From: Podarcis gaigeae
Taxonomy: Eukaryota
DNA length: 64,000 nucleotides
Reading direction: 5' to 3' (one strand)
Assembly (NCBI GenBank): GCA_964106915.2
Contig: OZ066918.1
Positions within the stretch are counted from its first letter, which is position 1, and each line of letters starts with the position of its first letter. A program made the position numbers. Shown piece by piece: positions 24,552-27,500 of this stretch.

Positions 24552-27500
24552 GAATATCAAATGTGTGTGGTTTCTCCACCGACGACTCGCCATGTGCGAG
24601 GAGGAAGGTGGGCTCCCTTCACCTCCCCGTCTCCTTAAGGGAAAGGGAAAACGATGTGAGGAAAAGCGACGCGGGACAGCGAGCGAGGTTTTCCTCAGAG
24701 CCTTTTCCCGCTGCCCCCTCGCAAGACAGCCCTGAAACCGAGCGCAGAGTGAGGGGCGGGGCCCCCGGCGGAGTCTCGCTGCCCCCCAACGCCTCTCGAG
24801 GGGGCATGAGGGGCGCCATGTCAAGGGCGCCCGCGGGCGCAACGGCGGCTCCTGTCAGGGCACGAGGCGGGCGGGTGTCCCTCGCGCAGCGGCAGCCGCC
24901 GCCGGCTGGCCCCGCCTCACCCGGCGCCTCTCCCCCACTCACCCCGTCCGCCCACCCATATCCCGCTCAGGAGGGGCCGGTGGGCTGCCGAGCGCCTCAT
25001 TGCAGCAGCACCAGAGAGGGAAAGAAGTCCGCCTCCTGCCGCCGCCGCCTCTTCATCCCCAGCAGCAACTTCCTTGCCCAGCTCCCCGCCGCCGCTTCCT
25101 TCTTTCCCTGCTTTGCAGTAGCAGCAGCCGCCGCCGCTCCTCCTCTCCTCCCGGGGACGATGCTCTGGCTCCTCAGCGGCAGCTCCCGAGCCGTGTCCCC
25201 GCGGCACCTCCGCTCCCCCGGGCTCCCCTTCGCCGCCTGGCTCCTGCTGCACCACCTGGGGGCAGCGCCCATGGCTGGGGCTTCCTCCTTCCCGAGACAT
25301 GCGGCTCTGCTACAGCCTGCGCTGTAGCGACTCCGGAGGCGGCGACTCCGGAGGCTGCGAGTGCGCCCCCCCAGATGTTGCGCCCGGTGCGGCCGGCACC
25401 CCCTGCACCCCCCACGCTACGCCACTGCCCCTCCCTACAGCTGTCTAAGTCCCCTCCTCTCCAGGGCTTTCCCCAAGCAATCATGGACTGTGCCTTTGTG
25501 CAGCCTGCTGCAGCTCTGCCCGTTTCAGCTCTCTTCTCAATCAAAAGGACTTTTTTTTTTAATGCCAAAGTTGTGTCATCAATGAGGCTGTAGACTGAAG
25601 GGCCATAAGATGTGGCATAAGTGTGTTCCTCCTCTCCTGTTCCACCCATGATACTGCCCCATTATCACCAGCATATCTGAGGTGTACCACTGGGATATCT
25701 GTTATGCAGCATATCTGGTGCTTTGCCAGTGTAGCAGAGCTTCTACCATACCCTATACAGTGGTACCTTGGGTTACAGATGCTTCAGGTTACAGACTCCG
25801 CTAACCCAGAAATAGTACCTCGGGTTAAGAACTGTGCTTCAGGATGAGAACAGAAATCACGCGGCAGTGGGAGGCCCCATTAGCTAAAGTGGTACCTCAG
25901 GTTAAGAACAGTTTCAGGTTAAGAACGGACCTCCAGAACGAATTAAGTTCTTAACCCGAGGTAGCACTGTAGTTCCTCAGCTGGTATATCTTGTGTATAG
26001 GGTTGTATCCCCCCAAAATCCCATCTCCATTATAGTATTATACTATTATAGATTACCAAATATTTCAGAGAAAGGTTTCTATCAGAGAAACATATCTTGA
26101 AGAAACTGCAAAGCGTGTTAGGAAACCTATTTGCATAATGGGATATCAAGATATATGTTTGTATTAGCGTCATGAAAAGGATTTTTAATGGAATAACTGC
26201 CTTTTTGTAGCTAAGTAATTAAGTGAACAAGAGAGATTTTTATATAAAAAATCAATAGTGCAGTATTTCAGTGAGTGATATTTTGGGAAGTTCTGGCATA
26301 AGTAACAGTTTTTCATCCTCACTAGATCACATAGAATGCACTATTATTTGGAAATTTAAATTACTGCATGCTTTTATAAAAAATATGTAAATGGGTTTTA
26401 AATGCAAAGAGTAAAGTACATATTCACAGAGACTGGATTTTTTTAAAAAAACCCCACGTTTTGAAGATCACATGGATTACAGATAACACTTAGTTTAAAA
26501 AGAAGCAAAAAAAAATTATGAGGATATGACTGTATTTTCTAAACCCATTAAGAGAGTTAACACAGTAGGAGAGCTCAGCATATGCTTAAATATGAAAAAT
26601 GTGAACATCTTGTGATCTGCCTATTCATAATTCTAAAATCGGTGTCCATAAGATTAATATCAATTAGTGGTATCAAATCCTGAAGTAGCACCCCCAAAAC
26701 ATTTACGGGAACTAAAGAATACCATTTATTTCTGCACAGGGTAGGATACATTTCTACTCAGGGGGGTAGCATGCTGGGGAGGCCTAGGGCCCCACATACA
26801 GGTCACATTCACACCATACGTTCAAAGCATGTGGCTTTCCCCAAAGAACCATGGGAATCTGCTTATCTCCCAGACATGGGAACCACCCAACCCAAAGCGC
26901 TTCCATCTTTCCAGGAGTCAAATACAGGTTTCAAACACCCATACCGGCCTCCAGCCTTACCCACTGTTATGTACTGAAGTTCTCACCCTGGGCCAGCAGG
27001 GGGATACTGTAGATAGTTATGCAAATAAGGGATCAAAAGTGACGTTCAGTGATTGGATAGTTTTAGAAAGTTGTTACAGTAACGTTGTACTGGAGCTCTA
27101 TATAAGCAGGCTGACTGAACCCTTCAGTTCATACATGGGCATACATGGTGAAGACATTGGGGAATCCTATGTCTACAGTTGCACACCAAGTTACATCCAT
27201 GTCCCAGTATACAGATCTCTTTGCCGTTTGCTATTTTTTAAAACCCCCCTGCAAAGATGAATTTAACATTATGGCTAGTGGGATCTTCAGATTAACTAAT
27301 CTATACAAAAACACCAGGCTTATGGTTTATGCAGATGACTTCAGGGCATACGGCACAAGGCTTTCTTGAGCCCACCCTGTTTAGGATTTTCAGAAACACT
27401 TCTGCCTCAATATTATCAATAAACCTCTCAATAATAATGAAAGCCTTTTCACTCTAATGTGATTGCTTGTGTGTATCCTCTCCCTGTGTTGCATATCTTT

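What the first reader, a model, noticed from the sequence alone, without database searches (positions are those of the whole stretch)
24921..25300. Cargo retains a start codon and splice donors, so it could act as a portable first exon
Seen on the minus strand: gccgcATG at 25300 opens a Gly/Ala/Glu-rich frame running ~119 codons to GG|gtgagt (exon end 24943). A second donor CGG|gtgagg is at 24921, followed by intron-like sequence with an (ATT)n repeat and an older repeat. CpGs are undepleted. Inference: the insertion is very recent or stays unmethylated, and could seed chimeric transcripts splicing to minus-strand acceptors downstream (for example those at 1.5-3.8 kb). I cannot name the donor gene, and the segment may be 5' UTR rather than coding.
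Basis: partly seen in the sequence, partly recalled or inferred. Interest (0 to 1): 0.65.

Follow-up and report, generated by a model that had tools for sequence, protein, structure and literature searches.

The report
Compound hAT-like transposon carrying a CpG island
A 1.4 kb jumping-gene insertion in this lizard-like genome carries about 1.2 kb of CpG-rich DNA that looks like part of a gene's start region, but nothing shows it codes for a protein or is used as an exon.

Summary
They lie inside one insertion, 24020-25427, bounded by perfect 17-nt inverted termini and an 8-bp target duplication. The insertion is compound: a 72-bp left end, then about 1,190 bp found once in the window, then a complete 147-bp miniature element of the same family. 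The cargo is heterogeneous host-type DNA: a CpG island, a microsatellite and a CpG-depleted old repeat cut exactly at the inner terminus. This fits two neighbouring elements moving as one, or repair-copying out of another copy. The "first exon" reading has no support beyond the island. An open frame that long appears in 29% of composition-matched simulations. Donor-like sites are at background density. The start context is weak. No protein or domain relative was found in the frames searched. I could not name a donor gene, and no squamate genome or transcript data were reachable. Most likely this is a Pack-type hAT-like element carrying a promoter-proximal CpG island as a passive passenger.

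The parts
25428..25435 (.). Target-site duplication, copy next to the outer left terminus (CCCCTCCC on + strand)
   Evidence: It is identical to 24012-24019. This 8-mer occurs only 6 times on the + strand of the 64 kb window, counting these two copies and one inside the inner element.
25356..25427 (-). Outer left end of the hAT-like family: a 17-nt terminal inverted repeat plus subterminal sequence, with no right half
   Evidence: The 16-mer CAGTGGCGTAGCGTGG matches exactly at 25412-25427(-). The end is 58/60 identical to the solo copy at 56864-56923. Homology to the inner copy ends near 25356.
25327..25360 (.). 15-bp tandem repeat, 2.3 copies, directly at the junction of left end and cargo
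   Evidence: Tandem Repeats Finder reports 94% matches. The same repeat is family D9. Its origin is open: subterminal repeat of a longer parent element, or a junction footprint.
24560..25355 (.). CpG-island part of the cargo
   Evidence: GC is 0.69-0.73 and CpG o/e 0.71-0.96 in its sub-blocks. 24600-25450 has GC 0.71, o/e 0.76 and 80 CpGs. There is no other copy in the window.
24944..25300 (-). The frame itself runs on to a stop at 24917.
   Evidence: The length is within chance. No protein, domain or structure relatives were found.
24937..24942 (-). Donor-like GTGAGT, last exon base 24943
   Evidence: It matches 7 of 9 positions of MAG|GTRAGT.
24915..24920 (-). Donor-like GTGAGG, last exon base 24921. 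It overlaps the frame's TGA stop.
   Evidence: It matches 7 of 9 positions.
24514..24551 (.). (ATT)n microsatellite, 12.7 copies, inside the cargo
   Evidence: One search reports 100% matches.
24307..24513 (.). Moderately CpG-rich cargo between the microsatellite and the old repeat
   Evidence: 24307-24500 has GC 0.62 and CpG o/e 0.54. It is single-copy in the window.
24167..24306 (.). Old interspersed repeat 'X', truncated exactly at the tip of the inner element's left terminus
   Evidence: It is 79-82% identical to 35679-35739 and 4425-4473. Those two copies share about 175 bp with each other (35655-35825 and 4332-4505) at 71.5%. CpG o/e is 0.20.
24020..24166 (-). Complete 147-bp miniature element of the same family. 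Its right terminus is the right end of the whole insertion.
   Evidence: The terminal 17-nt arms are perfect (pairs I8 and I9). The right half is 64/66 identical to the solo copy. The 8-mer next to its inner terminus (CTTCAGGC) does not match the outer duplication.
24012..24019 (.). Target-site duplication, copy next to the right terminus
56864..57010 (+). Solo 147-bp copy of the same family, with its own 8-bp duplication GTTCCCGT at 56856-56863 and 57011-57018
   Evidence: It shows that the family makes 8-bp duplications.

Best explanation
Positions 24020-25427 are one recent insertion of a compound, non-autonomous, hAT-like DNA transposon of the 'Pack-type' kind.

Shown:
- Perfect 17-nt inverted termini.
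- An 8-bp target duplication around the outermost ends only.
- Two left ends in the same orientation (25427 and 24166) and one right end (24020).
- About 1,190 bp between them that is unique in the window and heterogeneous: a CpG island, an (ATT)n microsatellite, and an old CpG-depleted repeat that stops exactly at the inner terminus.

Inferred: at a donor locus a miniature element sat inside repeat X, next to a CpG island. One of two events then produced the compound element. Either a second nearby copy in the same orientation, lacking its inner end, was moved together with the first copy and the DNA between them. The product then inserted here.

The cargo is most likely a promoter-proximal CpG island. 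The purine-rich, G-skewed minus strand is the likelier sense strand. The ATG, open frame and donor-like sites are what such GC-rich DNA offers by chance, or are remnants of a 5' UTR or first exon. Here the cargo is most likely a passive passenger. Its CpGs are kept because the insertion is young, because the island stays unmethylated, or both.
For: - The terminal 16-mer has 5 exact matches in the window against 0.16 matches (up to 3 mismatches) expected by chance.
- The 8-bp duplication is identical at 24012-24019 and 25428-25435, at an 8-mer frequency of about 9e-5 per position.
- The solo copy also has an 8-bp duplication.
- The 8-mers flanking the inner copy do not match each other, so it is not a separate insertion at this site.
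- The outer left end and the inner right half are each about 97% identical to the solo copy.
- The cargo has no second copy in the window.
- X is an unrelated old repeat with CpG o/e 0.20, while the rest of the cargo has 0.54-0.96.
- No transposase or other domain was found in 0 of 13 open frames over the element, nor in 0 of 6 ORFs there.
- Minus-strand GC skew is +0.2 to +0.41 over 24875-25325.
- Published parallels: maize Ds elements with filler DNA occasionally captured from genes, and a compound Ds-like element made of a regular element, trapped DNA, a truncated duplicate end and a target duplication (PMC3260210, passages). Also the model of neighbouring same-orientation insertions mobilised as one, with the inner terminus deleted (PMC8903248, section 9 read whole).
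Against: - No donor locus, parent gene or second copy of the cargo could be looked for, because no squamate genome was reachable. 'Captured host DNA' therefore rests on heterogeneity of the cargo and uniqueness within 64 kb.
- The family's own ends are as GC- and CpG-rich as the cargo.
- The outer and inner left ends share about 14 nt that the solo copy lacks, and a 15-bp tandem repeat follows directly. So at least the first tens of bases of the 'cargo' could be native to a longer parent element.
- The superfamily call rests on termini and duplication length only. No hAT transposase is in the window: 1 of 144 other open frames has any Pfam hit, and that hit is a reverse transcriptase.
- The two target duplications do not fit the weak hAT target consensus as I recall it.
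Confidence: 0.6

Rival explanations
1. The cargo is a gene's 5' end (promoter, 5' UTR, start codon, first coding exon, start of intron 1). At this site it is active as a portable promoter and first exon, giving chimeric transcripts spliced from 24943 or 24921 to minus-strand acceptors downstream.
For: - A CpG island of about 0.8-1.1 kb is followed on the minus strand by donor-like sites and then by intron-like DNA with a microsatellite and an old repeat.
- The G-rich skew is on the minus strand.
- GGTRAG is mildly enriched on that strand: 3 against 0.80 expected, with 4.6% of simulations reaching 3.
Against: - The open frame is within chance: 29% of simulations reach its length.
- Donor-like sites are at background density and equal on both strands.
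- The start context is weak, and an out-of-frame ATG at 25272 has a better one.
- No relatives of the 127-aa frame were found in 1.84 billion representatives.
- None were found for the + frame 24554-25324 among proteins of 141-450 aa.
- None were found for the minus frame 24622-24966 among proteins of 203-2000 aa.
- Only about 55 bp of cargo lies upstream of the ATG.
- No exon-like open frame was seen at 1.4-4.2 kb.
- No expression data could be consulted.
Confidence: 0.1
2. The 'cargo' is simply the ordinary interior of a long, multi-copy, non-autonomous member of this hAT-like family. The 147-bp elements are its deletion derivatives. A miniature copy nested near its right end now supplies the right terminus.
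For: - The family ends have the same GC and CpG richness as the cargo.
- The outer and inner left ends share sequence beyond what the solo copy keeps, so longer forms exist.
- A 15-bp tandem repeat sits where hAT subterminal repeats would lie.
- In maize, most Ds-like filler sequences fall into high-copy clusters whose origin cannot be traced (PMC3260210, passages).
Against: - The cargo contains an unrelated, much older, CpG-depleted repeat and a microsatellite.
- There is no transposase remnant in any frame.
- There is no second copy in 64 kb, although the family has another member there.
- The right side is a whole miniature element rather than a plain right end.
Confidence: 0.22
3. A native CpG island of a host gene lies here. 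Two independent insertions of the family, one of them truncated, happen to flank it, and the matching 8-mers are a coincidence.
For: - hAT-type vectors (Ds, Tol2) are enriched near transcription start sites and CpG islands in zebrafish (PMC4825651, passages).
- The flanks are C/G-rich, which raises the chance of a match.
Against: - The 8/8 match has an 8-mer frequency of about 9e-5 per position.
- The complete inner element lacks a duplication of its own: CCCCTCCC against CTTCAGGC.
- The two left ends are in the same orientation, with exactly one right end, as expected for a unit.
Confidence: 0.04

Closest known systems
Compound or 'filler'-carrying Ds and Ds-like elements of maize (hAT superfamily), e.g. 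Ds-l4-483, and Ac/Ds macrotransposons
   Same: - Short conserved termini and an 8-bp target duplication.
- An interior replaced by unrelated genomic DNA that is occasionally genic.
- One described element consists of a regular element, trapped foreign DNA, a truncated duplicate end and a further copy of the duplication (PMC3260210, passages).
- The same paper mentions a macrotransposon that moved about 100 kb between two elements. I did not read the original reference.
   Different: - The host is a vertebrate with lizard-type repeats.
- The family is unrelated in sequence to Ac/Ds.
- In the maize example the regular element is flanked by the duplication on both sides. Here the inner terminus has none.
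- The cargo here is a CpG island rather than internal exons.
Pack-TYPE transposons of plants (Pack-MULE, Pack-CACTA, Pack-hAT) and the 'neighbouring insertions' model of DNA acquisition
   Same: - Non-autonomous elements with inverted termini that carry host DNA internally.
- The model proposes two same-orientation neighbours mobilised as one after deletion or mutation of an inner terminus (PMC8903248, section 9 read whole).
- A Pack-hAT element is reported to supply a new splice donor to a maize gene (same paper, passages).
   Different: - That paper defines the class by identified parent genes. Here no parent gene could be identified.
- Those cases are in plants.
- The paper's S5 Fig, which shows Pack-hAT structures, is a supplement I could not see.
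Helitron capture of gene 5' ends in vespertilionid bats (e.g. [quoted passage not shown]
   Same: - A vertebrate DNA transposon carries a promoter-proximal segment ending within intron 1.
- 5' ends are over-represented among captures.
- Some copies contribute start codons or splice sites to host transcripts (PMC4224331, passages).
   Different: - Helitrons use a rolling-circle mechanism, have no inverted termini and make no target duplication.
- In bats the parent genes are identified and the copies number in the thousands.
- Here the element is a cut-and-paste type, only one copy is known, and the parent is unknown.

Membership tests
hAT superfamily, non-autonomous (miniature) element | 8-bp target-site duplication | tested here: met
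   CCCCTCCC flanks 24020-25427 and GTTCCCGT flanks 56864-57010, both 8/8.
hAT superfamily, non-autonomous (miniature) element | Short terminal inverted repeats beginning with the hAT-type motif (YARNG, as I recall it) | tested here: met
   The arms are perfect over 17 nt (pairs I8 and I9) and begin CAGTG. The motif itself is recalled and comes from no call.
hAT superfamily, non-autonomous (miniature) element | A related autonomous element that encodes a hAT transposase (BED finger, hAT dimerisation domain) | tested here: inconclusive
   None is in this window. Pfam hits: 0 of 13 open frames over the element; 1 of 144 other frames, a reverse transcriptase; 3 of 12 other ORFs, all reverse transcriptase or endonuclease. 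The rest of the genome could not be searched.
hAT superfamily, non-autonomous (miniature) element | Weak target consensus nTnnnnAn (recalled) | tested here: not met
   Neither 8-mer fits both positions on either strand. This is a weak statistical preference, recalled from memory, and is not decisive.
Pack-type / transduplicating DNA transposon | Termini and target duplication of a DNA transposon, with no transposase inside | tested here: met
Pack-type / transduplicating DNA transposon | Internal segment demonstrably derived from a host gene (parent locus or protein similarity) | tested here: inconclusive
   No protein relatives were found for three frames, and no parent locus could be searched. 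Only indirect signs exist: a CpG island next to an old unrelated repeat.
Compound element / macrotransposon (two neighbouring copies moved as one) | Ends contributed by two separate copies in direct orientation, with the target duplication around the outermost ends only | tested here: met
   Left ends lie at 25427 and 24166, both on the minus strand, and differ by 3 substitutions and 11 gap columns in 60 columns. The duplication pairs 25428-25435 with 24012-24019 and not with 24167-24174.
Compound element / macrotransposon (two neighbouring copies moved as one) | A donor locus that shows the two copies, or an excision site | not testable with these tools
   No genome of the source organism or its relatives is available. 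The open contig collection holds bacteria and archaea only.
Vertebrate CpG-island promoter with first exon | CpG-island criteria (>=500 bp, GC >=0.55, o/e >=0.65; thresholds recalled) | tested here: met
   24600-25450 is 851 bp with GC 0.71 and o/e 0.76.
Vertebrate CpG-island promoter with first exon | Start codon in a good context, and a coding frame with relatives or codon bias | tested here: not met
   The ATG has C at -3 and T at +4. GC by codon position is 0.79, 0.66 and 0.67. There are 0 protein relatives, 0 PDB hits, 0 Pfam hits, and the frame length is within chance.
Vertebrate CpG-island promoter with first exon | Transcription start and spliced junction observed | not testable with these tools
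   No expression data are available.

The most novel reading that the evidence does not exclude
A cut-and-paste hAT-like element in a squamate has picked up a working CpG-island promoter with its 5' UTR, first exon and splice donor by co-mobilising two neighbouring miniature copies. It has carried this unit to a new locus. There the island stays unmethylated and starts transcripts that splice into downstream minus-strand sequence. That would be a vertebrate, hAT-borne counterpart of plant Pack-type elements and of bat Helitron promoter captures. It could even be a relocation of a gene's only promoter rather than a copy.
Probability: 0.08. Interest if true: 0.7.

Novelty: new member of a known kind. 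Interest (0 to 1): 0.35.

Why it matters
Capture of host DNA by cut-and-paste transposons is well documented in plants. In vertebrates the documented cases I could find are Helitrons in bats. The start of a 2008 abstract (PMC2572040, seen in the listing) called transduplication of protein-coding genes unknown in animals.

A young compound hAT-like element that carries a whole CpG island would show that the 'neighbouring insertions' route of DNA acquisition also operates in a reptile genome. It would also provide a natural test of whether a transplanted CpG island keeps its unmethylated, promoter-like state at a new site.

As the evidence stands, this is a well-defined structural example with no evidence of function.

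Tried and rejected
**Searches that found nothing**
- Protein searches to name a donor gene:
  - The 127-aa minus frame against 1.84 billion representatives gave 0 hits at E<=0.001.
  - The + frame 24554-25324 against proteins of 141-450 aa gave none of 3,200 candidates.
  - The minus frame 24622-24966 against proteins of 203-2000 aa gave none of 2,316 candidates.
  - The PDB gave 0 of 177,635 distinct sequences.
  - The third word-index protein search was not used. The minus frame 25000-25416, which holds the better-context ATG at 25272, and the remaining + frames were not searched against proteins.
- Pfam on the element's frames gave nothing above cut-off. There was one sub-threshold match, 15.1 bits against a cut-off of 34.1.
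- Rfam over 22000-27500 at E<=1 gave only a chance-level mir-624 match outside the element, 23.8 bits against a gathering score of 100.
- ARAGORN found 0 tRNAs in the window.

**Readings examined**
- A sensitive self-comparison of the cargo showed no significant internal duplication.
- The idea that the inner element is chimeric, with an old left half and a young right half, could not be established. Its left half differs from the other copies mainly by two gaps.
- The CpG-rich DNA beside the solo copy at 56.3-57.5 kb is a pair of SINE-like repeats, not a second CpG island.
- X does not continue on the far side of the inner element: BLAST at word size 7 found no match in 23700-24019.

**Literature**
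- The terminal 12-mer is in none of the searchable papers.
- Searches for hAT capture in lizards or other vertebrates listed no such report. I judged this from titles and abstract starts only.

**Not available or not used**
- No squamate genome or transcriptome was available.
- Genome contigs holds bacteria and archaea only and was not used.
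Full report
**1. The observation**

On the minus strand the window reads gccgcATG at 25300. The frame stays open for 127 codons to a TGA at 24919-24917. GGG|GTGAGT follows 119 codons plus one base, so the last exon base is 24943. CGG|GTGAGG has its last exon base at 24921 and overlaps the stop. Downstream on that strand lie (ATT)12.7 at 24514-24551 and an older repeat at 24167-24306.

CpG is undepleted. The observed/expected ratio is 0.71 in 24921-25300 and 0.76 in 24600-25450, against 0.28 for the window. 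Only 3 of 128 bins of 500 bp pass GC>0.5 and o/e>0.6, and two of them are here. The description is correct to the base.

**2. Is it more than chance?**

The CpG island is more than chance. The coding and splicing features are not.
- In 2,000 first-order Markov simulations of 24600-25427, 29.1% gave an ATG frame of at least 127 codons.
- All six frames of the element are largely open; the longest open stretches run from 103 to 257 codons.
- GC by codon position is 0.79, 0.66 and 0.67, so there is no third-position excess.
- The ATG has C at -3 and T at +4. An out-of-frame ATG at 25272 has G at -3 and G at +4.
- Sites matching at least 7 of 9 positions of the donor consensus number 4 on each strand of the 1,408-bp element. 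The window holds 122 and 129, about 2 per kb per strand.
- The stricter GGTRAG occurs 3 times on the minus strand against 0.80 expected; 4.6% of 5,000 simulations reach 3. The combination of a long ATG frame with such a site inside it appears in 6% of 2,000 simulations.

**3. What surrounds it**

The 16-mer CAGTGGCGTAGCGTGG occurs exactly at 25412-25427(-), 24151-24166(-), 24020-24035(+), 56864-56879(+) and 56995-57010(-). A sixth match has 3 mismatches. Chance predicts 0.16 matches.

Positions 56864-57010 are a solo 147-bp element with 17-nt termini and the 8-bp duplication GTTCCCGT.

At the finding, the 8-mer CCCCTCCC directly flanks 24020 (at 24012-24019) and 25427 (at 25428-25435). The 8-mer beside the inner terminus is CTTCAGGC. 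CCCCTCCC occurs 6 times on the + strand of the window, counting these two copies. Positions 24020-25427 were therefore inserted as one unit. In minus-strand order the unit consists of:
- a 72-bp left end (25427-25356);
- about 1,190 bp of cargo (25355-24167);
- a complete 147-bp element (24166-24020).

The outer left end is 58/60 identical to the solo copy, and the inner right half is 64/66 identical. The inner left half differs from the other two by 3 substitutions and 11 gap columns. At CpG sites the solo copy shows 2 TG/CA changes relative to each part of the compound element and none the other way. The numbers are small, and some of the columns involved are weakly aligned.

**4. The cargo**

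The cargo has no other copy in the window and no significant internal duplication. It is heterogeneous:
- blocks with GC 0.69-0.73 and CpG o/e 0.71-0.96 over 24560-25355;
- the microsatellite;
- a block with o/e 0.54 (24307-24500);
- repeat X (24167-24306) with o/e 0.20.

X is related at 79-82% to 35679-35739 and 4425-4473, and those two copies are only 71.5% alike. So X is much older than the transposon family. X is cut exactly at the tip of the inner terminus. The other X copies run about 25 bp further, and that continuation is not found on the far side of the inner element.

This is what one expects if the inner element was an ordinary insertion into X at another locus, next to a CpG island, and that flank was carried along.

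A 15-bp tandem repeat (2.3 copies, 25327-25360) sits at the junction of left end and cargo. The outer and inner left ends also share about 14 nt that the solo copy lacks. The first tens of bases after 25356 may therefore belong to a longer parent element rather than to captured DNA.

**5. Searches for a donor gene or function**

| Query | Search | Result |
|---|---|---|
| 127-aa minus frame | 1,835,955,588 representative proteins | 0 at E<=0.001 |
| 127-aa minus frame | PDB sequences | 0 |
| + frame 24554-25324 | proteins of 141-450 aa | none of 3,200 candidates |
| Minus frame 24622-24966 | proteins of 203-2000 aa | none of 2,316 candidates |
| 6 ORFs in the element | Pfam | 0 of 6 |
| 13 open frames >=75 aa over the element | Pfam | 0 above cut-off |

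- One search listed 169 open frames of at least 75 aa in the window. I scanned 144, of which 1 hit (a reverse transcriptase), and 13.
- The remaining 12 lie in the retroelement at 50.8-55.7 kb and were not scanned in that form. Four ORFs of that region were scanned.
- No hAT transposase and no recognisable host exon is in the window.
- Rfam gave only a chance-level match outside the element.
- The minus frame 25000-25416 and two + frames were not searched against proteins.

**6. Mechanism**

What is shown: a unit insertion with two same-orientation left ends, one right end and a duplication around the outer ends only.

What is inferred: the unit arose by one of two routes.
- (a) Two neighbouring copies, one lacking its inner end, were mobilised together with the DNA between them. 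This is the model set out for Pack-TYPE elements (PMC8903248, section 9 read whole). It is also implied by the maize compound Ds-like element and the macrotransposon mentioned in PMC3260210 (passages). I did not read the original macrotransposon and Pack-CACTA papers.
- (b) After an excision, repair synthesis switched template into another copy and ran into its flank. PMC3260210 cites this explanation for filler DNA.

The anatomy does not separate (a) from (b).

The minus strand is G-rich over 24875-25325, with skew +0.2 to +0.41. I recall that such skew marks the sense strand downstream of CpG-island promoters.

At most about 55 bp of cargo precede the ATG at 25300. If that ATG were genuine, most of its promoter was not captured. 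An in-frame ATG at 25000, 19 codons before the first donor-like site, would leave a roughly 300-nt leader inside the cargo. That is at least as plausible a first-exon layout, but the coding part is too short to search.

**7. Comparison with known systems**

The closest described objects are:
- filler-carrying and compound Ds or Ds-like elements, and Pack-hAT elements, of plants;
- among vertebrates, Helitron captures of gene 5' ends in bats (PMC4224331, passages).

The features for a hAT-like miniature family are met for duplication length and termini. A transposase partner could not be tested. Membership of 'Pack-type' in the strict sense remains open because no parent gene is known.

My literature searches (listings only) showed no report of hAT-mediated capture in a lizard or other vertebrate. 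The terminal 12-mer appears in no searchable paper. The supplements of the papers cited, for example S5 Fig of PMC8903248, could not be seen and may show closer structural parallels.

**8. Verdict**

The finding is a real and neatly delimited compound transposon carrying a CpG island. It is a new member of a known kind.

The 'portable first exon' idea is permitted by the sequence but is not supported by any test available here. Its specific markers (ATG, frame, donors) are within chance.

Unchecked:
- copy number and donor locus in the source genome;
- the orthologous empty site;
- transcription and methylation.

Nothing in the window was taken for human. The two N runs (28304-28458 and 30718-30851) were left as they are. 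The retroelement-like stretches were only described.

Noticed in passing
window 50862-55684 (+): An L1-like non-LTR retroelement on an A-rich strand. It has an ORF1-like open frame, and an ORF2 with endonuclease (Exo_endo_phos) and reverse-transcriptase (RVT_1) matches. ORF2 is spread over three open frames, so it is interrupted at least twice. It was described only.
   Followed up: partly
window 5238-6383 (-); also 5225-5426 and 13468-13669: A second reverse-transcriptase fragment (RVT_1, E 4.9e-28). It is the only Pfam hit among the 144 open frames. Its end is repeated at 92% identity 8.2 kb away.
   Followed up: no
window 23279-23753, 25750-25975, 42128-42346, 44499-44750: A palindromic family of miniature elements, 84-91% alike, with copies on both sides of the compound element. 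The copies look independent and do not form a duplication that includes the finding.
   Followed up: partly
window 56370-56730, 57110-57460, 18899-19198: CpG-rich SINE-like repeats. Two copies in opposite orientation bracket the solo hAT-like element and explain the third CpG-rich bin of the window. 18899-19198 is 89% identical to 57124-57423. ARAGORN finds no tRNA gene. Calling them SINE-like is my recollection and comes from no tool.
   Followed up: partly
window 24820, 24594, 24441 (minus-strand starts): The 7-mer CATGGCG occurs three times on the minus strand of the cargo and never on its plus strand. All three lie downstream of the donor-like sites. This is unexplained. They could be motif sites or alternative start codons.
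   Followed up: no
window 35655-35825 and 4332-4505: Two further copies of the old repeat X, 71.5% alike, with no element termini beside them.
   Followed up: partly
window 28304-28458 and 30718-30851: Two runs of N. They were left as they are.
   Followed up: no
window 24020-25427: The compound element keeps three intact termini: two left and one right. The maize paper notes that chromosome-breaking Ds elements all have multiple ends (PMC3260210, background passage). Whether that is relevant here is unknown.
   Followed up: no
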